Virus record (IMG/VR): IMGVR_UViG_3300025832_000001 | Direction: 5' to 3' (one strand) | Length of the DNA: 64,000 nucleotides | Source: a virus | Shown here: positions 20,048 through 62,585 of the stretch, one piece after another | How the letters are laid out: each line of letters opens with the position of its first letter | Numbering within the stretch: the stretch's first letter is position 1 | Notes under the pieces: model-generated | What the model saw: only the letters and a program-made list of their open reading frames with translations | The model's database searches: none | Told to the model about the DNA's origin: nothing | Position numbers and translations under genes: made by a program

Positions 20048-20273
20048 TGAATTAATAAAGGTAGCTAAAGAACCTATTGTAGACTCTGGTGATGATATAT
20101 CAGCAGATCGTTTAAAAAACGCAGCGGCAACAAAAAAACTAGCTATATTTGATGCTTTTGAAATATTAACAAGAATTCAAGAGGAGAAAGATATATTAAA
20201 TGAAAAACCTAAAGAAGTGAAAGAAGAAAAAGCTTTTAAAGGTTTTGCTGAAGGAAGGTCTAAAAATGTATAA
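19992..20273 (+). CDS. Hypothetical protein; small terminase subunit candidate by position only
   Basis: 93 aa ORF immediately 5' of, and overlapping, the large terminase. Its 5' end overlaps the previous gene by 56 nt, so the true start is uncertain. Confidence 0.25.
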   Translation: MEIKKTKLNIIQAGQIAVDELIKVAKEPIVDSGDDISADRLKNAAATKKLAIFDAFEILTRIQEEKDILNEKPKEVKEEKAFKGFAEGRSKNV

Positions 20274-34767: not shown

Positions 34768-35162
34768 TGAAATTGTATAGTAAAAAAGAAATAGATATCT
34801 ATATAAAAAAATTGTTACAATTAAAATGGGCTAATTATGATGTATATTTAGTAGGTGGTGCAATTTATAAACAAGAAACAAAAGATATAGATATATGTAT
34901 TGTTGGGTCTAGTGATTCAAATAAAGTTTCTAAATTAATAGAACAAAGTAGAAAGTTAGGTCCATTTGATATTTATTATTGTAATGAAGATCAAATAGGT
35001 AATCAAAAACCACGTGCTGCTAAATCTTATGATAGAGGTCATATCAAAGCAAAACAAAGAAAAGGTGAATGGATTGATGGATTATTCTGGCAATATTTAG
35101 ACTTTTCGTATAAAAAATTTAATCCAAAACCACTATTAATATATAAAGGTAGCGGAAGTTAA
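34767..35162 (+). CDS. Minimal Pol-beta-superfamily nucleotidyltransferase
   Basis: 131 aa. YLVGGAIYKQETKDIDICIVG has a G-G pair (34854-59), an 8-residue spacer and D-I-D (34884-92), so it closely approximates the hG[GS]-x(9-13)-Dh[DE]h signature. It also resembles the LVGGAVRD....DIDI head motif of CCA-adding/poly(A) polymerase enzymes. Its ATG overlaps the upstream TAA by 1 nt. Confidence 0.5.
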   Translation: MKLYSKKEIDIYIKKLLQLKWANYDVYLVGGAIYKQETKDIDICIVGSSDSNKVSKLIEQSRKLGPFDIYYCNEDQIGNQKPRAAKSYDRGHIKAKQRKGEWIDGLFWQYLDFSYKKFNPKPLLIYKGSGS

Positions 35163-35187
35163 TAAAAAAATAAGTAACTATATTAAT

Positions 35188-36663
35188 ATGGCGGCTATAA
35201 TAGAAGTAAAATATTTCAACTCTTTTCTATTGAAAAAGACTATTGGTAGTTCAAATAAATTACCTTTATGGAATGGCTCTAGAGGTATTCCTAAAGTTGG
35301 TAATATGCAGGGTGGTTATAGTCAAGTTGGAACAGCTTATAGTTCTACAGATAACTGGCTTGTAGAGGAATCTAGAATAAGAGGAGGTTATAATAATACT
35401 ATCGTTGATTTAGGGCCTAGAGCTTTTTTAGTAGAAGAAGAATTAAACGGCGTGCAGAGAATTAACTCGTTGATATATTCTGGAATATTTAATTCTAGAA
35501 CAGGTATAAATCAGACAAATGTTTTTCCAGTAGGTGAAGACATTAGCAAAAGTTTAGATCCTTCACAAGGTAGCATACAAAAGTTATTTGCTGAAAATAC
35601 GAACTTAACTATATTTCAAGAAAATAAAGTTAGCTATTCTTTAATAGATAAAGATGCTATATATACAGCTGAAGGTGGTGGTGTTCAAGTAAGTCAATTA
35701 AATTTAGTGTTAGGTCAGATAGTACCTTACTTAGGTAATTTTGGTATAGGTAAAAATCCAGAATCATTTGCAACTTATGGATTTAGAAAATATTTTGTTG
35801 ATCCAGATAGAGGTGCAGTATTAAGACTGTCTAGAGATGGTATAACTGAAATATCTAATTACGGTATGTATGACTTCTTTAGAGATGAATTATCTAATGT
35901 AAACACTAATACTAGTTCTGGAAATATGCCAGGTGGTTGGGATATACACAACAAACAATATGTGGTGTCTTTACAAAATACAGCTGACAGCAAGTTCAGC
36001 ACATTATCTTTCGATGAGTCAGTAAGGGGTTGGACTAGTTTTTTTACTTACAAACCAGAGTTTATGGTTAGTTTAAGAAATGATTTTTACAGTTTTAATA
36101 ACGGTATACTATATCAACACTATAGTGATTCTGTAAACAGAGGAAATTTTTATGGAGTAAATAATAATACATCTATAACATTTATATTTAACCCTAATGT
36201 TAGTATGTCTAAAAACTTTAAAACTATAAACTATGAAGGTAGTAATGGTTGGAGAATAGACTCTATAGAATCTGATCAAACTGGACCTGATAATTATAAC
36301 GGTGTTTATAGTAATGTTACAGATCTTACAGCTTCTATACCTAGTTATTTGGGGGGAGAATACATATTAAACCCAGTTACTAATGAGGTTGTTTACCCAG
36401 CACAGTATGGTACTGTATTTGGAAATGATAATCCTCCATATAATAGAAGCTACGCTGGGTTTGTTAGAAAAGAAAACAAGTATGTTGCAAACCTAATTAA
36501 TGCAACACCATCTACTCAAGGTGAAGTTATATTTGGTAACCAAATGAGTGGTATAAAAGGGTACTTCACAACAGTAACAATATCAACAGACGATGCAACA
36601 GCAGTAGGAGAAATTAAAGAATTATTTGCTGTCTCTTCTGAATATGTGCAGTCGGCTTATTAA
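35188..36663 (+). CDS. Hypothetical structural protein
   Basis: 491 aa ORF in the structural block. Confidence 0.45.
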   Translation: MAAIIEVKYFNSFLLKKTIGSSNKLPLWNGSRGIPKVGNMQGGYSQVGTAYSSTDNWLVEESRIRGGYNNTIVDLGPRAFLVEEELNGVQRINSLIYSGIFNSRTGINQTNVFPVGEDISKSLDPSQGSIQKLFAENTNLTIFQENKVSYSLIDKDAIYTAEGGGVQVSQLNLVLGQIVPYLGNFGIGKNPESFATYGFRKYFVDPDRGAVLRLSRDGITEISNYGMYDFFRDELSNVNTNTSSGNMPGGWDIHNKQYVVSLQNTADSKFSTLSFDESVRGWTSFFTYKPEFMVSLRNDFYSFNNGILYQHYSDSVNRGNFYGVNNNTSITFIFNPNVSMSKNFKTINYEGSNGWRIDSIESDQTGPDNYNGVYSNVTDLTASIPSYLGGEYILNPVTNEVVYPAQYGTVFGNDNPPYNRSYAGFVRKENKYVANLINATPSTQGEVIFGNQMSGIKGYFTTVTISTDDATAVGEIKELFAVSSEYVQSAY

Positions 36664-36673
36664 ATTAAATTAA

Positions 36674-37081
36674 ATGGATTTTAAAACAAGAACATTACTA
36701 GAGGAAGACTATAGTATGTTAGAAAACTGGTGGAAAGCTTGGGGCTGGCCAGCAGTAAGTAAAGATATACTACCAGACAATGGAACCGGTGGAGTGATGG
36801 TTGAATACAAAAATAAACCTATTGTAGCTGGATTTATATACTGGAGCAATTCTGGTTTATGTTGGTTTGATTGGGTCGTATCAGATCCTGAGGGCAACAA
36901 AAGAGCTAGACCTTTAGCTGTGAAACTTTTGATTGAAACAGTAGAGCAAATGGTAAAAGATGCAGGTAAAAAATGTATTATGTCAATAAGCAGAAGTAAC
37001 AGTCTGTTAAAGATACATAAAAAATTAGATTGGGTTGTTGATGAAACACCTTCTCACGAAATGATAAAAAGAATAATTTAA
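36674..37081 (+). CDS. Hypothetical protein; weak GNAT-acetyltransferase-like pattern
   Basis: 135 aa. The length and the alternation of beta strands and a helix (IVAGFIYW...WVVSDPEG...RPLAVKLLIETVEQMVKDAG) recall GNAT motif A, but the Q/R-x-x-G-x-G/A signature is absent. Confidence 0.25.
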   Translation: MDFKTRTLLEEDYSMLENWWKAWGWPAVSKDILPDNGTGGVMVEYKNKPIVAGFIYWSNSGLCWFDWVVSDPEGNKRARPLAVKLLIETVEQMVKDAGKKCIMSISRSNSLLKIHKKLDWVVDETPSHEMIKRII

Positions 37082-37093
37082 AACAATAAAAAT

Positions 37094-37771
37094 ATGGCAG
37101 TAGTATCAGCAGTAGCGGTAGGCGTAGGTATGGCAGCGACAGCAGTCGGTGGAGCCGTAGCTGCTAACCAAGCTAAGCAAGCGGCAAAAGGCTATAAGAA
37201 TGAAAAAGAAAGAGCTAGGGCAGAAATTGAACAAATAAAATCAGAGAGAACTCCTATAGTAAATCCATACGCTGGAGTTACTGATCTTAGTGGTATGGTA
37301 AGTAATCCATTCGCTAATTTAGGCGTTGCAACTCAAGCTGCTGAATTCCAAGCAGAACAAGCTGATATGTCTTTAGCTAGTAGTTTAGATTTATTAGCGG
37401 CAACAGGTGCTGGTGCAGGTGGTGCAACCGCTTTAGCTCAAGCTGCATTACAAAGTAAAAAAGGTATATCTGCTAGTATAGAACAACAGGAAGCTGCTAA
37501 CGAAAAACTTAGAGCACAAGGTCAAAGCGAGGCTGATAAGCTAAAGATGAGTGAACAAATGAGATTACAACAAGCAGATGCCGCTGGAATACAGTATGAG
37601 TTTCAAGCTAGAGAAGCCAGAACAAATGCTGATTTAGGTTTTGCCGCTGGTAATATGCAGCAAGCTGCACAAAATCAAGCAAACGCCAAAGCTGCTCAAG
37701 GTCAAGCTTGGGGTAATGCTTTAAGTGGAATAGGTGGTGGACTAATGGCTATTGGTGGAGCTGCAAAATAG
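37094..37771 (+). CDS. Internal virion/ejection protein candidate (A/Q/G-rich with hydrophobic termini)
   Basis: 225 aa. N-terminus AVVSAVAVGVGMAATAVGGAVAA and C-terminus GIGGGLMAIGGAAK are Gly/Ala hydrophobic segments. The centre is a Q/A/E-rich helix. Lies upstream of two large core-like genes. Confidence 0.4.
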   Translation: MAVVSAVAVGVGMAATAVGGAVAANQAKQAAKGYKNEKERARAEIEQIKSERTPIVNPYAGVTDLSGMVSNPFANLGVATQAAEFQAEQADMSLASSLDLLAATGAGAGGATALAQAALQSKKGISASIEQQEAANEKLRAQGQSEADKLKMSEQMRLQQADAAGIQYEFQAREARTNADLGFAAGNMQQAAQNQANAKAAQGQAWGNALSGIGGGLMAIGGAAK

Positions 37772-37790
37772 GTGTAAAAAATAAAAAAAT

Positions 37791-39470
37791 ATGAGCGCAT
37801 ACGATAACCCAAGAATAATAAACGATCAATCTGCTATGGCTTGGGCTAACGCCTCTGCTAAGGTTACACAAACTATGCTTCAAGGCATACAAAATGTAGT
37901 AAAGTTTAGAAACGAGCAAAAAGCTATTGCTGCCGCAAAGCAAGAAAAGTTCAATTCAGTGTGGACAGCAGCTTCACTTACTCAAAATAAAAACTTAACC
38001 GACGCTGTAACTACGGCTAAAGCTAATCCTAATGCTGACAAAACATTAATAGAGCAATTCCAAAGAATACAAGAAACGTTGATGCAAGGTGGTGAGGGTG
38101 TTATGGGTTCTATAGAAGCTCAAACTTTATTAATGACTAAATCTAATTTAAGTAGAGAAGAAAGAAACGAGTTACAAAATATAGTTAACAGGTCAAACAC
38201 AAACATGGCTTCAATAGTTAATGATGGTGGTAAAATAATGACTGATGTAGAGTTAATAAAGTCTTACGCTGGAAGCAGTGGTCCACAAAGAACTATGTTT
38301 TGGGAAGGTGGTAGCAATGGTGTTACAGGTCAAATAGCATCTCAACTAGCTGGTATGAGTTTAAGTAACATAGCTATAGACGGCGTTAAATCAACTAAAA
38401 AAGCAACACATACTTCTGAAGGTAATTTTGTAACAATAGAAAGTACATTAAAGAAAAGTAATGACTTAGTAAAAAATTTAGATCTTAATAAAGACTTTAT
38501 AAAAGATAACGGAGACGGTACAGTAACATTTAAGTGGCAAAAGAATATGTCACAGTGGGACGGCAATCTTCTTAACAAAACAGAAGATGGAACTGATTAT
38601 GATAAAATAGCTAAAGAACAAGGTATAGATGAAAATGGAGAACTAGCTAAGTCTTTTAGAACTCCATTAAACGCTATAACTTCAGTTGGTAAAGATGGTT
38701 ATCAAAACGTTATAAGCAGAGAGTTTGTAGATACACAGGCGCTGGATAACAAGTTTGAATCTACATTGAAAGGTAGAGCTGCAAGCATTTTAGGCATGGA
38801 TAACCCTGAAGCAATACAAGCGTACTTAGAACAAAGACTAGGTATGGGTGAAGTTAATATAAAGAAGTTTTTAGAAAAAACACAAGCTGATAAAGTTAAA
38901 ACTCTTACTGAATTAGAGATGGTTGCTATGCGAGAGCATTACGACTTAGTGCCTGAGGTAGATGGTATTGATGCTTTTGATAAAGAAGAGTTAAAAGATA
39001 AAATAAACCCTAAAACAGGTGTTAAATATACAGAGCAAGAATTAGCTAACATGGCTACTATGGGTGATCAACCTGGATTTAAGTTAGTTGTTAGAAAATT
39101 AAGTCAAGAAGATGTTGATCAAATTAATGAAGCTGGTATAAACGGTTACTCAGAAGGTATGGAGGGTTATTTTTACGAAACACTTTCTACAAAATCTACA
39201 CCAAAAAGTAACACTGGTACAACAACTCAATATGATAATGTTTTTAATAAATTATTTAAAGATATTAAAATGGATAATGCCGAATTAGAAAGTATTTTTG
39301 CGGATCCTAAACCAACACCAGCTACATACGGTCAATCGGGATTAAAAATTTATTATGGGTATGATAAAGACAAAGAATATGTTCGTAAATATGCAAAAAA
39401 TGCTGCAGGAATATATGAGTTTACGGGTAATGAAATACCTCAATCAGTACTAAAAACAATATATAGATAA
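37791..39470 (+). CDS. Internal virion/core protein candidate
   Basis: 559 aa ORF. Its stop lies 1 nt before the ATG of the giant gene. Confidence 0.4.
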   Translation: MSAYDNPRIINDQSAMAWANASAKVTQTMLQGIQNVVKFRNEQKAIAAAKQEKFNSVWTAASLTQNKNLTDAVTTAKANPNADKTLIEQFQRIQETLMQGGEGVMGSIEAQTLLMTKSNLSREERNELQNIVNRSNTNMASIVNDGGKIMTDVELIKSYAGSSGPQRTMFWEGGSNGVTGQIASQLAGMSLSNIAIDGVKSTKKATHTSEGNFVTIESTLKKSNDLVKNLDLNKDFIKDNGDGTVTFKWQKNMSQWDGNLLNKTEDGTDYDKIAKEQGIDENGELAKSFRTPLNAITSVGKDGYQNVISREFVDTQALDNKFESTLKGRAASILGMDNPEAIQAYLEQRLGMGEVNIKKFLEKTQADKVKTLTELEMVAMREHYDLVPEVDGIDAFDKEELKDKINPKTGVKYTEQELANMATMGDQPGFKLVVRKLSQEDVDQINEAGINGYSEGMEGYFYETLSTKSTPKSNTGTTTQYDNVFNKLFKDIKMDNAELESIFADPKPTPATYGQSGLKIYYGYDKDKEYVRKYAKNAAGIYEFTGNEIPQSVLKTIYR

Positions 39471-39471
39471 T

Positions 39472-42400
39472 ATGGAAGAAGTTTATATCATAGATGGTAA
39501 TGAATATACTCTAGCTGAAATACAAGACTTTGCTTCAGCGGCGGGTTTAGAACTAGAAGATTATTTATCTAAAAATAACATAAGTAAAAAAGAAATTAAG
39601 AACGCTGAACAAGATTTTCAAAAGGGTGTTGTAGACAATGTGGATGCAACTGTAACACCCAAAGCTCCGGAAGCATCCGAGACTCCAAGTACTATGGAAC
39701 AAGTTTTGGACGTTGGTTCTTTGGGCTCGTCATTAGCAAATCCCATACTAGGAATATCTAATTTATTTAGATTAGCTAAAAAATATGATAAAGGAGAAGA
39801 GGGTGATTTTAGTGTAACTGAAGAACTAAAAGATATACCCCAAAGGGTTTGGGCCTCAACATTATCAGTGGGTGAGACTTTATCTAATGTACCTGGTTGG
39901 TTAAATAGACTACAATTCAATATTGCTAAATCTTTTGCTGACGAGGAGTTTCAAGAAAAGTTTGACGAAATGAGCGCACAAGAACAAGATGATCTTGTAC
40001 AAAACATTTCCTCTGCTACAGCCGCTGCAACTCCTGGTGTTGGAGGTTTTATACCAGCTTTAGGTAAACCAGGAAGAGAAAAAGCAGCTGAACTTAAAGC
40101 ATCTGCTGAAAAATGGAGAGAAGATTTAGAAGAATATGATAAAACTATATTCCAAGCTTTTGCTCAAGGACAAGTAATAGAAGGTGTTACAAGAACTTTT
40201 GCTGGCGCTATGGAAACAATACCATCAATAGCTCAAGCTATGATACCTTATGTGGGTATAGGTAGTATAGTAGCTGGTCAAGCCGCTCAAGCTGATGCTG
40301 AAAATATAGAAAAAGGTGAAAAATTAAATACAAAAAATTTAATATATTCAACAATTATAGGTGCTTCTGAAGGTTTATTAGAAATTACTACTAAAAAAAT
40401 AGGTGGTAAAATGTTTAAGGATCTTGCTGGTAAAAGCAAAGAATATGTTAAGCAAACGCTTAAAGGTGTTACTCTAAAATTAAGTAAAGAAGCTGGATCA
40501 GAGGGTTTATCAGAGTCTGCTACGTTAACCATTAATAAAGCTGCTGATATGCTTATTATGGGTGATGAAAAAGCTTTTGAAAACTATTGGTTAGAACTGG
40601 CTGATACTTTTATAATAGGTGCTGCAACTGGTGGCGGTATGAGTGGTACAGGTACTGCTGGTATTATAATCAGGGATGCTCAAGCAAATAATTCTATGCG
40701 TAGAAGTATTGAAGATAGTCAATACAACTCAATATTTGAGGCTTTTGATGGAACTGAAATTACAGATGATAAAATTAAATTAGCTGAAAATAAATTTGCT
40801 AATAGAAAATTAGAATTAGAATTAAAGCAAAAAGTATCATCAGGTGACTTAACAATAGAACAAGCTAACGATATAAAAATAAATTTTAGATCAACTCAAG
40901 GAGCAGTTAATATAGCTAAAAACCTAAAAATACAAGGTCCTTTATTAAAAGAAACAGTACAGTTATTGGAAGAAAGCTCTTTACTTAGAGCTGAAATAAA
41001 AAAAGCAGGTGACAACAAAGCTTTAGTAGATACACAAAAGAAAAAATTAGTAGAAATAGAAAATAGATTAGGGCAAATAAGTGCTGAAAATCAATTAGCT
41101 ATATCTACAGAAACAATAACTGATTTATCTAAAGGAGTTGAAGGTTTAACTGTTTTCACGGTTGAAAATGCTAAAGAAGCTGAAACATTATCTAAGGACC
41201 CTAAGTTTGACAACGTTGACAAGAAAGCGTTTGGACAACAAGGTTTTATATTGCAAAATAAAGAAACTGGTGAACAAACTATAGTTATAAATAAAGAGCA
41301 ATCAGCTAAAGATCTTGCTGTTGATGTAGCAAATCATGAATTTCTACATGCTTTATTATTTAAAACATTAAAAAATAGTAAAGGTACTGCTATAAATTTA
41401 GGTAAGGAATTAAAAACAGAGTTGTTTAAAATTGAAGGTATAGAAAATACTGAGTTTGCAGCTAGGTTAGAACAATATAAAGCAGATCCTGAGTCAGTAA
41501 AAATGGAGGAAGTTTTGACTTTATTTTCTGGAGCTATACAAACAGGTGATATAAAATTTAACCAAGGATTTTTTACTAAAGTTGGTGATATAATAAGAAG
41601 ATTTTTACAAAACGCTGGATTAAAAAACATTAAGTTTAACGAAGCTAAAGATGTTTATAACTTTATAAAAGATTATAATACAAGTCTAGAAAAAGGTAAA
41701 TTAACAAAAGCTCAGGAAAAATTATTTACTGAACGAGCTCAAGGTGATTTAGTTAAAAGAGAATATAAAACAAAAGATGATTCAACTGTTAAAGAGTCTA
41801 AATCTTTTTATGATAGCTTAACACCTGAAGAGTTGGTTCAAATTAAAAAATCTCCATCAAGCCAACCATCTGAGATTTCAAAAGCAGATAAAGCTTTGTT
41901 AAATCAATTTGATTTATTAGCTTTAAATGCTTTAAATTATGATACACGTAAAGGTGATTTTAAAAGAGAAGATGTTTTATCTGCTGCTAGAGAATTTTTA
42001 CCAGGTATAGTAGAAAGGTTTGATCCTAATACAGCTAAGTTTTCTACATTTGTAGACAACAATATGAGACCTAAACAACAGCAGATATACGAAGAGGTAA
42101 AAGGATTATCTCGTGAGGCTGATAGACTTGATTCTCCTGAGGCTAAAGAAATTGTAGCTGAAGAAACCGTTGTAGAAGAAAAACCAGTTGTTAAAGAGAC
42201 TAGAATTAATCCATTAAACTTTGACAAAGTAAACAAAGCGGAGGTTGAAGCTGTGGTTGATATAAAAACAGAAGAGATACCTGGTTTGTCTTTTAAGGAG
42301 GTTTCTGATAGATATGCAGGTAAAGCTGCGTCAAAAATATTTAACGTACCAGAAGCTAAAATAACTGATCCGAAGAAAAACTTAACATATGCTAAGAAAA

Positions 42401-45400
42401 TAGTAAATGGTATACCAGAACAATCAGAAGCTGGTAACATACAAGAGTTTTTTAGATCAGGGCAAAACGCTAGGAATTTTATAAGAATACTACCACCTGA
42501 AAATGTTAGTAGCTCTTCAGCAACTATAGACGAACAAGGTGAGAATATAGATGTGTCTAGAGACGTATTAGGTAGAGCTTTAGGTTTAAATAATAAACTA
42601 CTTAATTATTTTTATAATAAAACAAACAGAAGATCTAAAGGTAAATCATCTCAACCCACAGTGTGGGAGCTTAAAGAAGAATTTAAAAATCCTACATCAG
42701 AAATAGTAGACAAGTTTAAAACAGAGTTAGGTATAACACCAAGAGGTGAATTAAATCTATACGATAGAAACATAGGTCAATTATTGAAAGGTGCCGCTAA
42801 GTTACAAGGTCAAAATACAGCTAATGTTATTGCTCGTGATAAAGTAAAACAATCAACTGTAAAAACCGCTAAGCCAACTAAACAAATACTAGCTGACGTT
42901 GCTTCAAGTAAGTCTAGAGTTATGGCTGCAAAAGCTAAACCAAAATCTCCCAAACAATTGTCTAATGATATTAAAAAATCAACTAAACAAATTAGAGCTT
43001 TTGATAAGGTATCTGTAACAAAAGCAAGAGATGGAGGTAAAAAGGGTAGGGCATATAATAGAGACGCTAAGCTACCAGAAACTGTTAGAAGTTTTAAAGG
43101 TGAAACAATTATACAAGGTTTTAATAGAACTTTAAATAATTTTTCTGAAAGATTTCCGGGATACAACTCATACTTTAAAAATGCTTTGGTATTTGGTGAA
43201 ACAAGATCTCCATATGGTAAAGTTGATAGGTTTAAACAAGGTGTTGTAAATAAAGGAAAACAAAAAGATATTCGTAGAACACCTATTACTAAAGATAGAA
43301 AAATAACTAATGCTTATGCCAAATCTATTTTTGAAACTGGCTACGTAGCGAAAGAAAAAGCTAAATTAAATGTGTTGAAGGATTTTTATTTAGCTGCAGA
43401 AGCTTATTTAAAAGATAATCCTAAAGATATTTGGGTGTTTGATGAAATTACTTCTGCTGCAACTAATTCTCAAAATGCTCCTAACAGAGCTTTAGCACCA
43501 GCCCTTATAGTTCAAGTTGATTCTAATATGAAGCCTTTACAGGGTGTTAAAGGAATTGAAGAGCATACTGAGCCTCAAAACAACATAGGAACAATGTTAA
43601 CACAGGCCGCAAAAGATGGTAATGTGAAACAAATCTGGCCTATAGTAGAAGCATCTTACATGCAGGGTTGGATAGATTTAGATAATAACGATTTATTAGA
43701 TGTGGACTTTAAAACATCTATGCCTGAAGCATATTACAAAGGTGTTGAGCTTTATTTAGATGGTAAGTTAAAATTAGACCAAGGTTTACTATCTACAATA
43801 AGGTTAAGTGAGGCTGGTATAGATTTATCTAGTATGATGTATATACCTACTAAGCAAACCTTAGCTGAGTATTTTTTTGAAACAAACGAAGTTCCTGTAG
43901 AATTACAAAAAACTTTAATGAACGATTTATTCTCTGGTAATAAAACATTGAGAGAAATAAAAGATGAAGCATTATTTAATAGAGATGTTACTAATAGAGA
44001 AAATGAAACATTTAAACCAGACGCTAAGAAAGTTGTAGTAAAAAATAACAAAGCAGATAAAGCTATGGCTAATGCTAGAAGTAGTATTAAGTATTCTAAA
44101 AACAAAAAGAAAGCTAGAGTATTTGATTTCGACGACACGCTAGCTCAGTCAAACAGCAAGGTTATAGTAAACATGCCCGATGGTACTAGCAGAAAAATAT
44201 CTGCTACAGAGTTTGCAACAGAGGCTCAAGCTTTATTAGACCAAGGTGCTGAGTTTGATTTTGTACAATTTAATAAAGTTATTGATGGTAAAAAAGGACC
44301 ACTGTTTGAAGTCGCTAAAACAATACAAGATAAAAGAGGATCTGAAGACTTGTTCATATTAACGGCAAGACCTCAAGCTGCAGCTTTAAATATTAAAGAG
44401 TTTTTAGAAGGACTAGGTCTTAGTATACCTTTAAAAAATATAACAGGCTTAGCAGATGGAAGGCCAGAAGCAAAAGCAGATTGGTTTGTAGATAAATACG
44501 CTGAAGGTTATAATGATTTTTATTTCGCAGATGATGCTCTTAAAAATGTAAAAGCTGTTAAAAAAATATTTGATGTGCTTGATGTTAAATCTAGAGTACA
44601 ACAAGCTAGAATTAAATTTGCTAAATCACTAGATAGTGAGTTTAATAAGATGATAGAAAGAAATAAAGGTGTTAAGGCTCAAGCAACTTTTTCTGATATA
44701 AATGCCAGAAGAAAAGGTCGTAAACAAAAAAAATACGCGTTTTTTATTCCACCATCTGCTGATGACTTTAGAGGTTTAACAATGTATACGTTCGCTGGTA
44801 AAGGTAAACAAGGTGAAGCTGATCAAGCATTTTTTGACAAAGCTCTTATAAAACCTTACATGAAAGGTATTAATGCTATGGAAATAGCTAAACAAAGAAT
44901 AAGAAAAGACTATAGTGCTTTACTACAGTCACATCCTATTATTAAGAAACAATTAAAGAAAAAGTTTCAAGGAACTAAATACACTTTAGATGAAGCTACT
45001 AGAATATATTTGTGGAGTAAAGAAGGTTTTGAAATACCTGGTTTATCTAAAACAGATCAAAAAGATATTGTAAAGAAATTTGGTAAAGATGTAGATCTTG
45101 TAGCATTTTCAGAAGGAGTAAAACTTATAACTAGATTAGATCAATTTGTGGAGCCAACAGCTGCTTGGGACGGAACAACTATTATAGGTGATTTAAGTAG
45201 AGTTGGTAGAGATATAAACAGAGCTGAGTTTTTAAAAGAATTTACAGATAATGTAGATGAAATATTTAGTGATAAAAACTTAAATAAAATTGAAGCTCTT
45301 TACGGTTTTAGAGTTAGAGAATCTTTAATTAATATTATAGATAGAATGAAAACCGGTAGTAATAGATCAAGTGGTCAAGGCCGTATTGTTGCTAGGTGGA

Positions 45401-46881
45401 ATAACTGGGTTAATAACTCTACTGGTGCTATAATGTTCTTTAACAGACGATCTGCTTTACTACAGTTAATGTCCTCTGTTAACTTTGTTAATTGGTCAGA
45501 CAATAATCCTTTAAAAGCTGGAATAGCTTTTGCTAACCAACCACAATATTGGGGTGATGTTGCTAAACTTTTTAATTCAGATAAATTAAAACAGAGAAGA
45601 TCAGGTTTACAAAGTGATATACAAGAAGCTGAGATAGCTCAAGCGGCTAAGAACAACGGTATGGAGGGTGTTATTTCTTATATATTAAAAATAGGGTTTA
45701 CACCTACACAGGTAGCAGATAGTATAGCTATAGCAACAGGTGGGGCTACGTTTTATAGAAATAGAATAAACACGTATAAAAAAGCTGGATATGAATTAGC
45801 TGAAGCAGAACAAAAAGCTTTTGATGATTTTAGTGCTATATCAGATGAAACACAGCAATCAGCAGATCCAATGCTTATATCAGGTCAACAGTCTAGTGTG
45901 TTAGGTAGATTAGTATTAGCTTTTCAAAATACACCTATGCAATATACTAGGCTTATGAAAAAAGCAGGTCAAGACTTGATAAACGGTAGAGGAGATAAAA
46001 GAACTAATATAAGTAAAATAGTTTATTATGGGTTTGTTCAAAACTTAATATTCTCTACTTTACAAAACGCTTTATTTGCTTTGATACCAGGATTTGAAGA
46101 TGAAGAAGAGGATTATGCTACGGATAAAGATAGAGATAAAGCTATAGAGAAAAAATCTAAAAAATTAGATACTAAATTAGCTAGAGCTGGAAACAGTATG
46201 ATTGATACAATTCTACGTGGATCTGGTTTAGCAGGAGCCGTTGTTTCCACAATAAAAAATGTATTAATGGAATACAAAAAACAACAAGGTGAATCAGAGT
46301 TTAATAGAGAAAATGCTCAAGTTTTAATTGCGGCTTTAAATATATCTCCACCAATTGGTAGTAAAATTAGAAAAATAAACAATTTTTTAACAACTCAAAA
46401 GTATGAAAAAGATGTATTAGCTGAAAGAGGTTTTGACGTAATGATTGATGGAAAATTTCAATTAAGCCCAGCGTATGACATGCTTGGTGAATTAAGTTCT
46501 GCGACTTTAAATCTACCTTTAGACAGATTGTTTGATGAAGTAAACGCATTAACTGAAGCTTTAGACACACGTAATACTAATTACCAACGTATAGCTTTAG
46601 GTTTAGGTTGGAGACAGTGGGATGTAAACGCTAGATCAGAAGAACACGACTTAATAAAACTAGAAGGTAAAGCTAAAAGAAAAGAAGCTGGTAAAGAAAA
46701 AGCTAAAATAACTAGGCAAAAAAAGAAAATAGAAAAAGCTGATTATTATAAATACAGGCAAGAAGCTTTTAAAACCATACCTATAAAAGTTGAAGATAGT
46801 TTAAGAAAAATAGAAAGAAGTACAGGCGTTATGACACCTAAGTTTAAACTAGAAAAATTAGTGGAAAAACACGGAATATGA
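39472..46881 (+). CDS. Giant multidomain virion protein (ejected core/polyvalent-type) with zincin HExxH and HAD-phosphatase motifs
   Basis: 2469 aa. HEFLH lies at 41335-41349 (aa 622-626). The HAD motifs are: I, RVFDFDDTLA (D-x-D-x-T at 44125-44139, aa 1552-1556); II, FILTARP; III, RPEAKADW; IV, YFADDALKNV (about 44521-44550). Long K/E-rich linkers. Occupies the position of the T7 gp15/gp16 analogues. Confidence 0.65.
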   Translation: MEEVYIIDGNEYTLAEIQDFASAAGLELEDYLSKNNISKKEIKNAEQDFQKGVVDNVDATVTPKAPEASETPSTMEQVLDVGSLGSSLANPILGISNLFRLAKKYDKGEEGDFSVTEELKDIPQRVWASTLSVGETLSNVPGWLNRLQFNIAKSFADEEFQEKFDEMSAQEQDDLVQNISSATAAATPGVGGFIPALGKPGREKAAELKASAEKWREDLEEYDKTIFQAFAQGQVIEGVTRTFAGAMETIPSIAQAMIPYVGIGSIVAGQAAQADAENIEKGEKLNTKNLIYSTIIGASEGLLEITTKKIGGKMFKDLAGKSKEYVKQTLKGVTLKLSKEAGSEGLSESATLTINKAADMLIMGDEKAFENYWLELADTFIIGAATGGGMSGTGTAGIIIRDAQANNSMRRSIEDSQYNSIFEAFDGTEITDDKIKLAENKFANRKLELELKQKVSSGDLTIEQANDIKINFRSTQGAVNIAKNLKIQGPLLKETVQLLEESSLLRAEIKKAGDNKALVDTQKKKLVEIENRLGQISAENQLAISTETITDLSKGVEGLTVFTVENAKEAETLSKDPKFDNVDKKAFGQQGFILQNKETGEQTIVINKEQSAKDLAVDVANHEFLHALLFKTLKNSKGTAINLGKELKTELFKIEGIENTEFAARLEQYKADPESVKMEEVLTLFSGAIQTGDIKFNQGFFTKVGDIIRRFLQNAGLKNIKFNEAKDVYNFIKDYNTSLEKGKLTKAQEKLFTERAQGDLVKREYKTKDDSTVKESKSFYDSLTPEELVQIKKSPSSQPSEISKADKALLNQFDLLALNALNYDTRKGDFKREDVLSAAREFLPGIVERFDPNTAKFSTFVDNNMRPKQQQIYEEVKGLSREADRLDSPEAKEIVAEETVVEEKPVVKETRINPLNFDKVNKAEVEAVVDIKTEEIPGLSFKEVSDRYAGKAASKIFNVPEAKITDPKKNLTYAKKIVNGIPEQSEAGNIQEFFRSGQNARNFIRILPPENVSSSSATIDEQGENIDVSRDVLGRALGLNNKLLNYFYNKTNRRSKGKSSQPTVWELKEEFKNPTSEIVDKFKTELGITPRGELNLYDRNIGQLLKGAAKLQGQNTANVIARDKVKQSTVKTAKPTKQILADVASSKSRVMAAKAKPKSPKQLSNDIKKSTKQIRAFDKVSVTKARDGGKKGRAYNRDAKLPETVRSFKGETIIQGFNRTLNNFSERFPGYNSYFKNALVFGETRSPYGKVDRFKQGVVNKGKQKDIRRTPITKDRKITNAYAKSIFETGYVAKEKAKLNVLKDFYLAAEAYLKDNPKDIWVFDEITSAATNSQNAPNRALAPALIVQVDSNMKPLQGVKGIEEHTEPQNNIGTMLTQAAKDGNVKQIWPIVEASYMQGWIDLDNNDLLDVDFKTSMPEAYYKGVELYLDGKLKLDQGLLSTIRLSEAGIDLSSMMYIPTKQTLAEYFFETNEVPVELQKTLMNDLFSGNKTLREIKDEALFNRDVTNRENETFKPDAKKVVVKNNKADKAMANARSSIKYSKNKKKARVFDFDDTLAQSNSKVIVNMPDGTSRKISATEFATEAQALLDQGAEFDFVQFNKVIDGKKGPLFEVAKTIQDKRGSEDLFILTARPQAAALNIKEFLEGLGLSIPLKNITGLADGRPEAKADWFVDKYAEGYNDFYFADDALKNVKAVKKIFDVLDVKSRVQQARIKFAKSLDSEFNKMIERNKGVKAQATFSDINARRKGRKQKKYAFFIPPSADDFRGLTMYTFAGKGKQGEADQAFFDKALIKPYMKGINAMEIAKQRIRKDYSALLQSHPIIKKQLKKKFQGTKYTLDEATRIYLWSKEGFEIPGLSKTDQKDIVKKFGKDVDLVAFSEGVKLITRLDQFVEPTAAWDGTTIIGDLSRVGRDINRAEFLKEFTDNVDEIFSDKNLNKIEALYGFRVRESLINIIDRMKTGSNRSSGQGRIVARWNNWVNNSTGAIMFFNRRSALLQLMSSVNFVNWSDNNPLKAGIAFANQPQYWGDVAKLFNSDKLKQRRSGLQSDIQEAEIAQAAKNNGMEGVISYILKIGFTPTQVADSIAIATGGATFYRNRINTYKKAGYELAEAEQKAFDDFSAISDETQQSADPMLISGQQSSVLGRLVLAFQNTPMQYTRLMKKAGQDLINGRGDKRTNISKIVYYGFVQNLIFSTLQNALFALIPGFEDEEEDYATDKDRDKAIEKKSKKLDTKLARAGNSMIDTILRGSGLAGAVVSTIKNVLMEYKKQQGESEFNRENAQVLIAALNISPPIGSKIRKINNFLTTQKYEKDVLAERGFDVMIDGKFQLSPAYDMLGELSSATLNLPLDRLFDEVNALTEALDTRNTNYQRIALGLGWRQWDVNARSEEHDLIKLEGKAKRKEAGKEKAKITRQKKKIEKADYYKYRQEAFKTIPIKVEDSLRKIERSTGVMTPKFKLEKLVEKHGI

Positions 46882-47336
46882 AAATAAGTAAACATATATC
46901 ATATAATGAAGCTGTATATTCTAACACAGCTAAGCGTAGACAGATAGATAACAAACCTAACACGGAACAAGTAGACGCGATGAAAACAATTGCTTTAAAT
47001 ATATTTGAACCATTAAGAAATTTTGTAGGTGGTCCAATAAAAATTTCAAGCATGTTTAGATCAGAGAAATTAAACAAAGCCATAGGAGGTTCGTCAACCT
47101 CACAACACGTGAAAGGTCAAGCAATGGATCTTGATGATACATACGGTTATAAGACTAACGCAGAGATGTATAATTGGATAAAAAACAATTTAAATTTTGA
47201 TCAACTGATATGGGAGTTTGGTACTGATTCAAACCCAGATTGGATACACGTATCTTATGTTAACGATAAGGATAACAGAAATAGATGTTTAAAAGCTTAC
47301 AAAGAAAACAACAAAACAAAATACAAAATTATTTAA
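46878..47336 (+). CDS. Peptidase M15 family endolysin (VanY / L-Ala-D-Glu peptidase type)
   Basis: 152 aa. SQHVKGQAMDL (H-x6-D) plus DWIHVS give the Zn-ligand pattern of the M15 family. ATGA overlap with the giant gene. Confidence 0.75.
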   Translation: MKISKHISYNEAVYSNTAKRRQIDNKPNTEQVDAMKTIALNIFEPLRNFVGGPIKISSMFRSEKLNKAIGGSSTSQHVKGQAMDLDDTYGYKTNAEMYNWIKNNLNFDQLIWEFGTDSNPDWIHVSYVNDKDNRNRCLKAYKENNKTKYKII

Positions 47337-62509: not shown

Positions 62510-62511
62510 TG

Positions 62512-62585
62512 GTGCGCAGGGAGGATTCGAACCTCCGACCTCTAGCTTATGAGGCTAGCGAGCTGACCATCTGCTCTACCGCGCA
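62512..62585 (-). tRNA. tRNA with CAT anticodon (elongator Met, or Ile2 if lysidine-modified)
   Basis: Hand-folded cloverleaf on the - strand. Acceptor TGCGCGG/CTGCGCA (one G-U). D arm GAGC-AGATGGTCA-GCTC. Anticodon arm CTAGC-CTCATAA-GCTAG. Variable loop AGGTC. T arm GGAGG-TTCGAAT-CCTCC. No initiator features (no 3 G-C pairs in the anticodon stem). The 3' CCA is not encoded (C-CAA). Confidence 0.85.

What the first reader, a model, noticed from the sequence alone, without database searches (positions are those of the whole stretch)
39472..46881. 2469-aa virion-module giant protein with a zincin HExxH motif and a complete HAD-phosphatase motif set
Seen in sequence: HEFLH lies at 41335-41349. 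About 930 residues later there is a compact HAD-like module with all four motifs in order: RVFDFDDTLA (44125-39), FILTARP, RPEAKADW and YFADDALKNV. Long K/E-rich linkers flank it. The gene follows two core-like genes and is translationally coupled (ATGA) to the endolysin. Established knowledge: DxDx(T/V), a Ser/Thr, a Lys and DD define HAD phosphatases. Podoviruses eject large internal proteins, and multi-domain polyvalent virion proteins are known to deliver enzymes into the host. Inference: this may be an ejected effector carrying phosphatase/nucleotidase and metallopeptidase activities. Such activities could act on host envelope, nucleotide pools or signalling molecules at the moment of infection. 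A HAD domain embedded in an ejection protein is not something I know to be described.
Basis: partly seen in the sequence, partly recalled or inferred. Interest (0 to 1): 0.7.

Follow-up and report, generated by a model that had tools for sequence, protein, structure and literature searches.

The report
Giant phage virion protein carrying phosphatase
The last gene of this marine phage's particle-building block encodes a 2469-residue, cysteine-free protein that joins a self-processing-type zinc protease to a complete, conserved HAD phosphatase; it probably travels in the virion and enters the host with the DNA, and a phosphatase has not been catalogued as cargo in this class of phage proteins.

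Summary
None of this is chance. The protein has only 6 His, so 0.001 HExxH are expected, and the ordered HAD motif set appeared in 0 of 20,000 shuffles.

- **Zincin:** H622, E623, H626 and E680 are invariant across diverse homologues.
- **HAD:** D1552, D1554, T1556, T1631, K1668 and D1687/D1688 are invariant in the homologues aligned.
- **Structure:** AlphaFold models (pLDDT 82 and 86) give the canonical zincin and HAD topologies. Fold-search support is moderate for HAD and weak for zincin.
- **Family:** The protein belongs to a large, uncultured family (at least 2,300 clusters at 50% identity). Its members are 2,000-3,400 residues long, share a C-terminal core of about 700 residues, have one HExxH, and almost never contain Cys. 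About half carry the HAD module. Some relatives have a P-loop kinase inserted in the HAD flap, and one has ART-PolyVal.
- **Context:** The gene sits where related Flavobacteriia podoviruses encode giant "structural proteins".

Best reading: a capsid-cargo "polyvalent protein" whose zincin processes it and whose HAD is a delivered phosphomonoesterase. Packaging, ejection, activity and substrate are inferred. It is a new variant of a known kind.

The parts
39472..46881 (+). Giant ORF of 2469 aa with 0 Cys and 6 His. It is the last gene of the structural block.
   Evidence: It has 85 giant homologues. The family of its C-terminal core has 2,321 clusters at 50% identity.
39790..40647 (+). N-terminal conserved module (aa ~107-392). 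It is Gly/Ala-rich and moderately hydrophobic (IPSIAQAMIPYVGIGSIVA; GAATGGGMSGTG). I propose it as a packaging, anchor or membrane-contact module.
   Evidence: It aligns with the N-terminus of the giant last structural-block gene of Maribacter phage Panino (aa 13-301, E=2e-28). The match to the elemoE giant structural protein is weak (E=0.004). About 65 of 85 homologues have it. There is no strong transmembrane segment (maximum Kyte-Doolittle score 1.46 over 19 residues).
41089..41724 (+). Zincin-like (gluzincin-type) metallopeptidase domain, aa ~540-751. HEFLH is at nt 41335-41349 (H622, E623, H626). The third ligand candidate, E680, is at nt 41509-41511.
   Evidence: H622, E623, H626 and E680 are invariant in 18 whole proteins and in 30 diverse domain sequences. 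The AF2 model has pLDDT 82.3 and pTM 0.81: an N-terminal helix, a 3-stranded sheet, a helix carrying HExxH and a later helix carrying E680. BFVD hits at probability >=0.98 are to giant phage structural and uncharacterised proteins. The domain profile matches the elemoE structural protein at E=1.1e-11. Pfam gives only weak zincin hits.
41842..44091 (+). Variable middle region (aa ~791-1540) with no recognisable family. It contains a conserved EEHxEP motif (aa 1363-1368, nt 43558-43575) and Y1396.
   Evidence: Only 15-45 of 85 homologues share it. There are no Pfam or PHROG hits. The EEHxEP motif and Tyr are conserved in 19 homologues, in a protein with only 6 His.
44110..44607 (+). HAD-superfamily phosphatase domain, aa ~1547-1712. 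Motif I is D1552-x-D1554-x-T1556 (nt 44125-44139). Motif II is T1631 (nt 44362-44364), motif III is K1668 (nt 44473-44475), and motif IV is D1687/D1688 (nt 44530-44535).
   Evidence: All catalytic residues are invariant in the 19 sequences of alignment A1, and spacing is fixed in 44 homologues. The AF2 model has pLDDT 85.8, with each motif at the expected strand or helix end and a flap hairpin after strand 1. The best PDB matches are HAD enzymes (6iuy_B, E=1.3e-4). Pfam DUF2608 matches 16 of 19 members and PF12710 HAD matches 6 of 19.
44629..46671 (+). C-terminal core (aa ~1720-2400), the region that defines the family. It is mostly N/Q/R/G/S-rich conserved motifs, and its function is unknown. 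I propose a structural or ejection role.
   Evidence: 83 of 85 homologues have it. A phmmer search found 2,321 representative proteins, in nearly all of the 150 best listed at the C-terminal end of 2,000-3,400-aa proteins. There are no Pfam, PHROG or PDB matches.
31012..36663 (+). Muzzle-like tail protein upstream, split into ORFs of 1251 aa and 491 aa with a 131-aa ORF between them.
   Evidence: phrog_14478 matches both ORFs, and Pfam crAss_MUZ_C scores 33.4 bits against a cut-off of 27. Both ORFs map onto the single phi38:1 gp097.
36674..39470 (+). Three small ORFs (135, 225 and 559 aa) between the muzzle-like gene and the giant gene. The 225-aa and 559-aa products also have no Cys. They are candidate co-cargo or ejection proteins.
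   Evidence: They occupy the positions of phi38:1 gp098-gp100, which are annotated as structural proteins. The 135-aa ORF is homologous to the counterparts in Panino, elemoE and MW202828.
46878..47336 (+). M15 endolysin. Its ATG overlaps the giant ORF's stop codon (ATGA).
   Evidence: Peptidase_M15_3 at E=8e-17 and phrog_894 at E=2e-32. The overlap was read directly from the sequence.

Best explanation
The gene encodes a capsid-cargo 'polyvalent' protein of a marine Bacteroidota (Flavobacteriia-type) podovirus.

The proposed mechanism runs as follows. The protein is made late with the other virion proteins and packed inside the particle. Its N-terminal module (aa ~107-392) and its C-terminal core (aa ~1720-2400) provide the packaging and ejection scaffold. 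The absence of Cys and the scarcity of His suit a polypeptide that must be extruded partly unfolded through the tail and the periplasm. The single zincin-like metallopeptidase (H622, E623, H626, E680) cuts the polyprotein into working pieces, during maturation or after delivery. The HAD module (D1552 as nucleophile, D1554 as acid/base, T1631, K1668, D1687/D1688) is an active Mg2+-dependent phosphomonoesterase. It reaches the host with the DNA, before any phage gene is expressed.

Its most likely substrate class is a macromolecular phosphate end. The leading candidate is a polynucleotide 3'-phosphate, in PNKP-like end healing that would undo damage from host defence nucleases. The reasons are that the cap is small and that relatives insert a P-loop kinase in the HAD flap.

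Shown by computation: the domain identities, conservation, family architecture and synteny. Inferred: packaging, ejection, self-processing, catalysis and substrate.
For: **Domains.** The zincin ligands and all HAD catalytic residues are invariant. The AF2 models are confident and have the right topology. The best PDB matches to the HAD model are HAD enzymes. Homologues match Pfam DUF2608 and HAD models.

**Virion context.**
- The block from terminase, portal and capsid through the muzzle-like gene to the giant gene is collinear with phi38:1, elemoE, Panino and MW202828.
- Each of those phages ends the block with a giant ORF of 1691-3859 aa. It is annotated 'structural protein' in phi38:1 and elemoE.
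- The elemoE protein shares the zincin domain (E=1.1e-11), and Panino shares the N-terminal module (E=2e-28).
- In PhicrAss001 the genes after the muzzle gene are mass-spectrometry-verified cargo proteins, proposed to be ejected partly unfolded (PMC10172136).

**Polyvalent character.**
- The zincin metallopeptidase, defined as HExxH plus a Glu in the next conserved helix, is the hub domain of polyvalent proteins and is proposed to process them (PMC5512222).
- One homologue has ART-PolyVal and others have P-loop kinases.
- HAD is present in 44 of 85 homologues and 58 of 123 representatives, irrespective of core similarity.
- BFVD matches are to polyvalent and structural giant proteins.

**Composition.** The protein has 0 Cys where about 18 are expected (P~2e-8). 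111 of 123 family representatives and all three cultured positional analogues also have none.

**Substrate hint.** In at least 5 homologues and 4 further representatives, a Walker-A kinase of about 200 aa sits in the turn of the flap hairpin. It scores AAA_33 at 4.5e-15 and has weak matches to zeta toxin, the CthPnkp kinase, T4 Pnk and PSTK.
Against: - There is no proteomic or experimental evidence for this protein or any sequence homologue. The 'structural protein' labels belong to positional analogues that share at most one domain.
- The window sequence itself is below Pfam thresholds: DUF2608 scores 14.7 bits against a cut-off of 22.6, and zincin families reach only E>=0.026.
- Foldseek TM-scores are low (0.3-0.5). 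The zincin model has no PDB hit below E=0.07.
- There is no strong transmembrane segment that would support channel formation.
- The PNKP-like reading is weak. hhalign against T4 Pnkp aligns only motif I (probability 39%). The window protein has no kinase, and no ligase was seen. The kinase is about equally close to zeta toxin, which phosphorylates a sugar nucleotide.
- The fold matches to Legionella Lem4 and Ceg4 would fit a protein phosphatase equally well.
Confidence: 0.6

Rival explanations
1. The protein is packaged and ejected as above, but the HAD module is a small-molecule phosphatase or nucleotidase. It would act on NMPs or dNMPs, sugar phosphates, or a phosphorylated cell-wall precursor. 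The effect would be to reshape host pools or envelope synthesis at entry.
For: Most characterised HADs act on small molecules. A cytosolic 5'-nucleotidase (7zeh) and sugar-phosphatase-like HADs are among the fold matches. The inserted kinase of relatives has its best PDB sequence match to zeta toxin, a UDP-GlcNAc kinase (1gvn, E=0.003). PMC5512222 notes zeta-like kinases in polyvalent proteins and interprets them as acting on the cell wall.
Against: The cap between motifs I and II is small: about 55 residues, with no four-helix bundle in the model. In HADs that usually goes with macromolecular substrates (established knowledge, cited from memory). A few enzyme copies per virion are a poor way to shift a metabolite pool. 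A kinase and a phosphatase acting on the same small-molecule position would form a futile cycle.
Confidence: 0.25
2. The HAD module is a protein phosphatase effector, in the way Legionella injects the HAD-fold phosphotyrosine phosphatases Lem4 and Ceg4. It would switch off a host kinase-based defence or a regulator such as a BY-kinase or Ser/Thr kinase at the moment of entry.
For: Lem4 (6cgk, 6cgj, 6cdw) and Ceg4 (6aok) are among the better fold matches (probability 0.4-0.66, TM up to 0.45). The cap is small and the predicted site is open. The closest sequence family is the uncharacterised DUF2608.
Against: The matches are weak (E about 0.1). There is no sequence similarity to any solved structure. 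I could not verify any link between DUF2608 and Lem4/Ceg4. This reading does not explain the kinase insertions.
Confidence: 0.15
3. The protein is not packaged. It would be a late cytoplasmic multi-enzyme or scaffolding protein encoded next to the lysis and nucleotide-metabolism genes, acting during assembly or DNA processing inside the infected cell.
For: There are no proteomic data for this family. The gene abuts the endolysin and lies near ribonucleotide reductase genes. No Pfam virion domain such as MuF or an LPD was detected.
Against: It is on the same strand as the structural genes, tightly packed with them, and ends the structural block as in phi38:1, elemoE and Panino. It shares domains with those giant virion genes. 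Its Cys-free composition is shared with them and with the two upstream ORFs. Its architecture is that of a polyvalent protein.
Confidence: 0.12
4. It is the counterpart of the crAss-like virion RNA polymerase, a giant protein with a DFDxD catalytic motif as in phi14:2 gp66. On this reading 'FDFDDT' would be that motif rather than HAD motif I.
For: The protein is of similar size, sits in a similar position after a muzzle-type tail gene, and contains the string DFDD. In crassviruses that position encodes the polymerase cargo (PMC10172136).
Against: The sequence is D-F-D-D-T, not D-F-D-x-D. It lies at the end of strand 1 of a confidently modelled HAD fold, followed by invariant motifs II-IV. Half of the family lacks this segment altogether. 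Single-sequence and profile searches against all PDB sequences gave no hit; gp66 is, from memory, among them. No invariant DxDxD occurs anywhere in the alignment.
Confidence: 0.02

Closest known systems
Polyvalent proteins of phages and conjugative elements (Iyer, Burroughs, Anand, de Souza, Aravind 2017; PMC5512222)
   Same: Both are giant multi-domain polypeptides encoded with virion genes. Both have a zincin-like metallopeptidase (HExxH plus a Glu on the next conserved helix) as the recurring hub domain. Effector domains are swapped among relatives: ART-PolyVal and P-loop kinases occur in homologues.
   Different: That paper does not mention a HAD domain or any other phosphatase. None of its Pfam models (MPTase-PolyVal, LPDs, MuF) matches this protein. 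The 700-residue C-terminal core and the N-terminal module are undescribed.
Giant terminal 'structural proteins' of Flavobacteriia podoviruses: Cellulophaga phage phi38:1 gp101 (Pervagoviridae), Flavobacterium phage elemoE (3694 aa), Maribacter phage Panino CDS0069, MW202828 (3859 aa)
   Same: They hold the same genome position, last in a collinear structural block after the muzzle-like gene. The three checked (phi38:1 gp101, elemoE, Panino) are Cys-free. elemoE shares the zincin domain and Panino shares the N-terminal module.
   Different: None has the HAD module or the C-terminal core. Overall sequence similarity is otherwise undetectable.
Crassvirus cargo proteins (PhicrAss001 gp45-gp50; phi14:2 gp66 virion RNA polymerase)
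   Same: Large proteins encoded just after a muzzle-type tail gene. They are stored in the capsid and proposed to be ejected partly unfolded ahead of the DNA (PMC10172136). The window's tail gene carries the crAss_MUZ_C domain.
   Different: There is no RNA polymerase motif and no sequence or profile similarity to any solved structure. The cargo enzymes here are a protease and a phosphatase.
T4 polynucleotide kinase-phosphatase (PseT/Pnkp) and other PNKPs
   Same: The HAD DxDxT phosphatase has a [S/T]-[G/A]-R motif II. In relatives it is joined to a P-loop kinase of the AAA_33, PNK or zeta type.
   Different: hhalign aligns only motif I (probability 39%). The kinase is inserted in the flap hairpin rather than fused at an end. 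The window protein has no kinase. T4 Pnkp is a cytoplasmic early enzyme and is not virion cargo.
Pfam DUF2608 (PF11019, which I place in the HAD clan from memory) and the Legionella HAD-fold effectors Lem4 and Ceg4
   Same: DUF2608 is the nearest sequence family (16 of 19 homologues, best E=3.8e-6). Lem4 and Ceg4 are HAD-fold phosphatases delivered into a target cell, and they are among the fold matches.
   Different: The window sequence is below the DUF2608 cut-off (14.7 bits against 22.6). The Lem4 and Ceg4 matches are weak (E about 0.1). The delivery route, a phage capsid rather than a type IV secretion system, is unrelated.

Membership tests
HAD superfamily phosphatase | Motif I hhhDxDx(T/V) at the end of strand 1. 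An Asp at the +2 position is typical of phosphatases. | tested here: met
   VFD1552-F-D1554-D-T1556-L. D, D and T are invariant in the 19 aligned sequences, and the motif is present in 44 of 85 homologues. It lies at the end of strand E20-24 of the model.
HAD superfamily phosphatase | Motif II (Ser/Thr at the end of strand 2), motif III (Lys) and motif IV (DD or DxxxD at the end of strand 4), in that order. | tested here: met
   T1631, K1668 and D1687/D1688 are invariant. They sit at the end of E100-104, at the start of H138-150, and at the end of E155-160. Spacing is fixed in 44 homologues. The ordered set appeared in 0 of 20,000 shuffles.
HAD superfamily phosphatase | Rossmannoid fold with a flap beta-hairpin after strand 1, and structural similarity to solved HADs. 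| tested here: met
   The AF2 model has pLDDT 85.8 and a hairpin at E37-40/E46-49. The best PDB match is the HAD-type domain of 6iuy_B (E=1.3e-4, probability 1.0), followed by other HADs at probability 0.5-0.66. TM-scores are low (0.3-0.45), so the support is moderate.
HAD superfamily phosphatase | A sequence-profile match above a curated family threshold. | tested here: not met
   For the window sequence, DUF2608 scores 14.7 bits (cut-off 22.6) and PF00702 scores 13.9 bits (cut-off 26.4). Homologues do better: DUF2608 matches 16 of 19 with best E=3.8e-6, and PF12710 matches 6 of 19. PDB profile search found nothing.
HAD superfamily phosphatase | Mg2+-dependent phosphoryl transfer through an aspartyl-phosphate intermediate. 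| not testable with these tools
   This needs an enzyme assay with D1552 and D1554 mutants.
Zincin-like metallopeptidase of polyvalent proteins (gluzincin type) | HExxH on a helix, plus a Glu ligand on a following conserved helix. | tested here: met
   H622, E623, H626 and E680 are invariant in 18 whole proteins and 30 diverse domains. HExxH lies in helix 80-93 and the Glu in helix 135-152 of the model. This matches the definition in PMC5512222.
Zincin-like metallopeptidase of polyvalent proteins (gluzincin type) | Core fold: an N-terminal helix and a three-stranded sheet before the active-site helix. | tested here: met
   The model has H2-14, then E20-25, E52-57 and E63-68, then H80-93 (pLDDT 82.3, pTM 0.81).
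Zincin-like metallopeptidase of polyvalent proteins (gluzincin type) | Significant similarity to known zincin families or structures. | tested here: inconclusive
   Pfam gives only weak hits: Peptidase_M61 at 0.026, DUF3267 at 0.09-0.28, and M78 and SprT-like in a few members. The best PDB fold match is Certhrax at E=0.07. BFVD gives probability >=0.98 to giant phage structural and uncharacterised proteins, with weaker hits (probability 0.69-0.89) to polyvalent-associated and MuF-C proteins, a 'Peptidase' and a 'Lethal factor' entry further down.
Polyvalent protein (sensu Iyer et al. 2017) | Several unrelated effector or enzymatic domains in one polypeptide of a phage or conjugative element, with domain shuffling among relatives. 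| tested here: met
   The window protein has the zincin and the HAD. Relatives add a kinase or ART-PolyVal, or lack the HAD.
Polyvalent protein (sensu Iyer et al. 2017) | Packaged in the particle and delivered with the DNA. | not testable with these tools
   The only evidence is positional: synteny with annotated structural giants.
crAss-like virion RNA polymerase | A DFDxD metal-binding motif in a double-psi beta-barrel. | tested here: not met
   The string is DFDDT and it lies inside the HAD fold. There is no invariant DxDxD and no profile hit to any PDB sequence.
Polynucleotide kinase-phosphatase (PNKP) | A P-loop 5'-kinase and a HAD 3'-phosphatase in one protein, with similarity to T4 or mammalian PNKP across the phosphatase domain. 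| tested here: not met
   The window protein has no kinase. hhalign against T4 Pnkp covers only motif I (probability 39%). TIGR01664 (DNA 3'-phosphatase) reaches only E=0.18. Relatives do pair the HAD with a kinase, so 'works like' remains open.

The most novel reading that the evidence does not exclude
The HAD module, paired in relatives with a P-loop kinase built into its flap, is a capsid-delivered polynucleotide end-healing enzyme. It would enter with the genome and remove 3'-phosphates, while the kinase variants would add 5'-phosphates, at RNA or DNA ends cut by host defence nucleases before any phage gene is expressed. That would make nucleic-acid repair a pre-packaged counter-defence, spread across thousands of uncultured marine phages. 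The kinase-in-flap architecture would also be a new way to build a PNKP.
Probability: 0.2. Interest if true: 0.8.

Novelty: new variant of a known kind. Interest (0 to 1): 0.55.

Why it matters
Phages are known to carry enzymes in the capsid to win the first minutes of infection. Known examples include RNA polymerases, ADP-ribosyltransferases and anti-restriction proteins. A phosphatase is not in that catalogue.

Here a fully intact HAD phosphatase is a recurrent cassette in a very large family of giant proteins from uncultured marine phages (at least 2,300 clusters at 50% identity). Those phages are related to phages of Flavobacteriia.

- If the domain is delivered and active, it defines a new class of early effector.
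- The kinase-in-flap variants would then suggest pre-packaged nucleic-acid end repair.
- The family's strict avoidance of cysteine gives a simple sequence signature for finding ejected proteins.
- The 700-residue C-terminal core and the N-terminal module are undescribed domains worth structural work.

Tried and rejected
1. **Virion RNA polymerase reading of 'DFDD'.** Rejected. The string is HAD motif I, and there is no PDB or profile similarity.
2. **Stand-alone HAD genes.** A profile search returned many ORFs of 140-350 aa, and I first read L003 and L004 as split-gene versions. tblastn showed that motif I lies in the previous ORF in another frame. The contigs are frameshifted or low-coverage assemblies: ribonucleotide reductase is fragmented in L004, and the L006 contig is labelled '3x'. 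This is not evidence for free-standing HADs.
3. **Sequence or profile searches of the whole protein and of each domain against PDB.** Nothing was found.
4. **PHROGs on the giant protein.** No family matched.
5. **NCBIfam on the HAD and zincin segments.** Only TIGR01664 at E=0.18.
6. **tblastn of the whole protein and of the N-terminal module against 50,697 phage records.** Only Maribacter phage Panino matched.
7. **Transmembrane helices.** None is convincing.
8. **hhalign of the HAD profile against T4 Pnkp.** Only motif I aligned.
9. **Promoter and terminator scan around the gene.** Counts were at chance level.
10. **Literature.** There are no papers on DUF2608 and none on HAD domains in ejected phage proteins. 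The primary papers for the elemo and Cellulophaga virion proteomes are not in the searchable library. The 'structural protein' labels therefore rest on the GenBank records alone.


Full report
**1. The observation**

The + strand carries an uninterrupted ORF at 39472..46881 encoding 2469 aa. HEFLH is residues 622-626, nt 41335-41349. The four HAD-like strings are present in order:
- RVFDFDDTLA, with D1552, D1554 and T1556 (DFDDT at nt 44125-44139);
- FILTARP, with T1631;
- RPEAKADW, with K1668;
- YFADDALKNV, with D1687 and D1688.

The stop codon overlaps the ATG of the next ORF (ATGA). That ORF is an M15 endolysin (Peptidase_M15_3 at E=8e-17, phrog_894 at E=2e-32).

The motifs are far from chance. 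The protein contains only 6 His, two of them in HEFLH, so 0.0011 HExxH are expected. An ordered HAD motif set appeared in 0 of 20,000 shuffles of the sequence.

**2. Where the gene sits**

The window carries the late region of a phage, and all the genes below are on the + strand:
- tail fibres;
- a GroEL homologue;
- terminase (20245-22482);
- portal (22483-24864);
- a capsid-type virion protein (26118-27602);
- a muzzle-like tail protein (31012-34767 and 35188-36663; phrog_14478; Pfam crAss_MUZ_C at 33 bits, above its cut-off);
- three small ORFs;
- the giant ORF;
- the endolysin.

The portal and the muzzle-like protein find the same 87 phage records. All are podoviruses of Flavobacteriia: the Flavobacterium 'elemo' phages, Cellulophaga phages such as phi38:1 (Pervagoviridae), Tenacibaculum phages, Maribacter phage Panino, and an uncultured genome, MW202828.

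The block is collinear with these phages. Each ends it with a giant ORF: 1691 aa in phi38:1 (gp101), 3694 aa in elemoE, 1829 aa in Panino and 3859 aa in MW202828. The phi38:1 and elemoE records annotate theirs as 'structural protein'.

In the crassvirus PhicrAss001, which has the prototype muzzle protein, the genes after the muzzle gene are cargo proteins detected by mass spectrometry. [quoted passage not shown]

**3. The family**

A search of 5.8 billion proteins found 85 homologues. All are metagenomic and 1,700-3,460 aa long. Mapping them onto the query shows how each region is shared:

| Region | Residues | Homologues sharing it (of 85) |
|---|---|---|
| C-terminal core | ~1720-2400 | 83 |
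| N-terminal block, including the zincin | ~100-780 | about 65-76 |
| HAD segment | ~1547-1712 | 44 |
| Middle region | ~790-1540 | 15-45 |

A full phmmer scan of 1.84 billion cluster representatives with the C-terminal core gave 2,321 hits, 1,517 of them at E<=1e-30. In nearly all of the 150 best listed the match lies at the C-terminal end of a 2,000-3,400-aa protein.

Among 123 full-length representatives:
- 118 have exactly one HExxH;
- 58 have the HAD module;
- 111 have no cysteine at all.

Presence of the HAD does not track core similarity. For example, P0010-13 share 53-54% core identity with the query and lack the HAD, while P0014-24 share 36-47% and have it. The HAD therefore behaves as a cassette.

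Other relatives carry P-loop kinases (AAA_33 at 4.5e-15; Zeta_toxin), and one carries ART-PolyVal.

This is the pattern that Iyer et al. 2017 (PMC5512222) named polyvalent proteins. In these, a zincin-like metallopeptidase, defined as HExxH plus a Glu on the next conserved helix, is the commonest hub domain and is proposed to process the polyprotein. That paper never mentions a phosphatase.

**4. The zincin domain**

H622, E623, H626 and E680 are the only invariant columns in an alignment of 30 diverse domain sequences with 22% mean column identity. They are also invariant in 18 whole proteins.

AlphaFold2 on that alignment gave pLDDT 82.3 and pTM 0.81. The model has an N-terminal helix, three strands, a helix carrying HExxH and a later helix carrying E680. 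This is the core described for these peptidases.

External support is uneven:
- Pfam gives only sub-threshold zincin hits (M61, DUF3267, M78, SprT-like).
- The best PDB fold match is Certhrax at E=0.07. From memory, its N-terminal domain is lethal-factor-like.
- Against predicted viral structures, seven matches have probability >=0.98. All are segments of giant phage proteins, and they include 'Structural protein' of Cellulophaga phage phi17:2. Further down the list (probability 0.63-0.89) are MuF-C and 'large polyvalent protein associated domain' proteins and the Tenacibaculum phage Gundel_1 structural protein.
- The domain profile matches the elemoE giant structural protein at aa 1486-1665 with E=1.1e-11, around its HEIFH.

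I take the domain as a genuine polyvalent-type zincin. The claim about its fold rests on motif and topology more than on fold-search statistics.

**5. The HAD domain**

In the 19 non-redundant sequences aligned (48-69% identical to the query), the nucleophile Asp, the +2 Asp, Thr1556, the motif II Thr, the motif III Lys and the motif IV DD are invariant. Spacing is fixed across the 44 HAD-bearing homologues.

AlphaFold2 gave pLDDT 85.8 and pTM 0.78. Every motif sits at the canonical place:
- DxDxT at the end of strand 1;
- a flap beta-hairpin next;
- Thr at the end of strand 2;
- Lys at a helix N-terminus;
- DD at the end of strand 4.

The best PDB match is the HAD-type phosphatase domain of Dunaliella GPDH (6iuy_B, E=1.3e-4, probability 1.0). 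Other HADs follow at probability 0.5-0.66: a cytosolic 5'-nucleotidase, PH1952, XCC2798, the Nir2 LNS2 domain, and the Legionella effectors Lem4 and Ceg4. TM-scores are only 0.3-0.45.

The window sequence is below Pfam thresholds. However, 16 of 19 homologues match DUF2608 (best E=3.8e-6) and 6 match PF12710 HAD. Membership of the HAD superfamily is well supported. The subfamily is not resolved.

**6. What the HAD might act on**

Two observations bear on this.

First, the segment between motifs I and II is short. It holds the hairpin, two helices and a short strand. In HADs that goes with open active sites and macromolecular substrates. This is established knowledge cited from memory.

Second, at least five homologues (P0005, P0006, P0009, P0036, P0065) and four further representatives have a Walker-A kinase of about 200 aa that replaces the turn of the flap hairpin (…KVIVNM|kinase|KIxATxFA…). 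This is the classical insertion point for HAD caps. Other relatives carry unrelated inserts of 44-145 aa at the same place.

The kinase is equidistant from several known kinases:
- zeta toxin (E=0.003);
- the CthPnkp kinase domain (E=0.04);
- PSTK (E=2.9e-4);
- bacterial Pnkp (E=0.0017);
- T4 Pnk (E=0.43).

A kinase welded to a phosphatase makes biochemical sense if the two act on different positions, as in PNKP (5'-OH and 3'-phosphate). That is why I rank polynucleotide end healing first.

The case is weak, for three reasons:
- hhalign against T4 Pnkp aligns only motif I (probability 39%).
- The window protein lacks the kinase.
- No ligase was seen.

Protein phosphatase (Lem4/Ceg4-like) and small-molecule phosphatase remain live rivals.

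**7. Composition**

The giant protein has 0 Cys. The other ORFs in the window average 0.71% Cys, so about 18 would be expected (P~2e-8). It has 6 His where 32 would be expected.

The two ORFs just upstream (225 and 559 aa) are also Cys-free. So are the giant terminal proteins of phi38:1, elemoE and Panino and 111 of 123 family representatives.

This shared constraint is what one would expect of proteins that must unfold, pass through a narrow tail and cross an oxidising periplasm. That explanation is an inference.

**8. What it is not**

The protein is not the crAss-type virion RNA polymerase. 'DFDDT' is HAD motif I, no DxDxD is conserved, and no profile hit to any PDB chain exists.

The 'stand-alone HAD genes' suggested are artefacts of frameshifted or low-coverage assemblies.

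**9. Verdict**

Both enzyme assignments hold. The virion-cargo reading is well supported by context but unproven.

The zincin part is ordinary for this class of proteins. Four things are new relative to what I could find described:
- a conserved, catalytically complete HAD phosphatase as a cassette in giant virion proteins;
- its kinase-in-flap variants;
- the large family defined by an unknown C-terminal core;
- the strict avoidance of cysteine.

I rate it a new variant of a known kind, of moderate to good interest.

Noticed in passing
window 39472-46881, 37094-39470; L001, L005, L007: The giant protein has no cysteine and only 6 His. The two upstream ORFs (225 and 559 aa) also have no Cys, as do the giant terminal 'structural proteins' of phi38:1, elemoE and Panino and 111 of 123 family representatives. 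This may be a usable sequence signature of ejected or cargo proteins.
   Followed up: partly
homologues P0005, P0006, P0009, P0036, P0065 (and P0209, P0246, P0248, P0270): A P-loop kinase of about 200 aa (GGPGAGKT; AAA_33/Zeta_toxin) is inserted exactly in the turn of the HAD flap hairpin, so the kinase occupies the C1-cap position of the phosphatase. P0039, P0051, P0068 and P0035 carry unrelated inserts of 44-145 aa at the same point.
   Followed up: partly
window 43558-43575 (aa 1363-1368) and aa 1396: An EEHxEP motif plus a downstream Tyr is conserved in 19 homologues within the otherwise unassigned middle region. It is notable because His is so rare in this protein. It may mark a third catalytic or metal-binding module.
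   Followed up: partly
window 31012-36663: The muzzle-like tail protein is a single gene in phi38:1 (gp097), elemoE, Panino and MW202828. Here it is split into ORFs of 1251 aa and 491 aa, with a 131-aa ORF (34767-35162) between them that has weak nucleotidyltransferase hits (NTP_transf_2 at E=0.017; phrog_1614 at 3.7e-5).
   Followed up: no
window 13138-14712: The phage encodes a GroEL-type chaperonin (phrog_5725, E=4e-136). Related podoviruses (MW202828, elemoE) also carry GroEL or cpn10 genes.
   Followed up: no
window 44629-46671 (aa ~1720-2400): The C-terminal core of about 700 residues has many invariant N/Q/R/G/S positions (for example FFNxRSAxLQ, GFTPTQxADSxAIAxGG, SQQSxxP). It has no match in Pfam, PHROGs or PDB, yet it defines more than 2,300 protein clusters. 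It is an undescribed, abundant phage domain.
   Followed up: partly
L001 (Maribacter phage Panino) 11959-17448: Panino's giant terminal gene is annotated 'tRNA methyltransferase' in GenBank. Its N-terminus is homologous to the N-terminal module of the window protein (E=2e-28). The annotation probably describes at most one internal domain of another polyvalent virion protein.
   Followed up: no
window 5238-11003 and 62511-62585: There is a 1921-aa tail-fibre protein with multiple fibre-family matches, and a single tRNA-Met on the minus strand. The window's G+C content is 33.7%.
   Followed up: no
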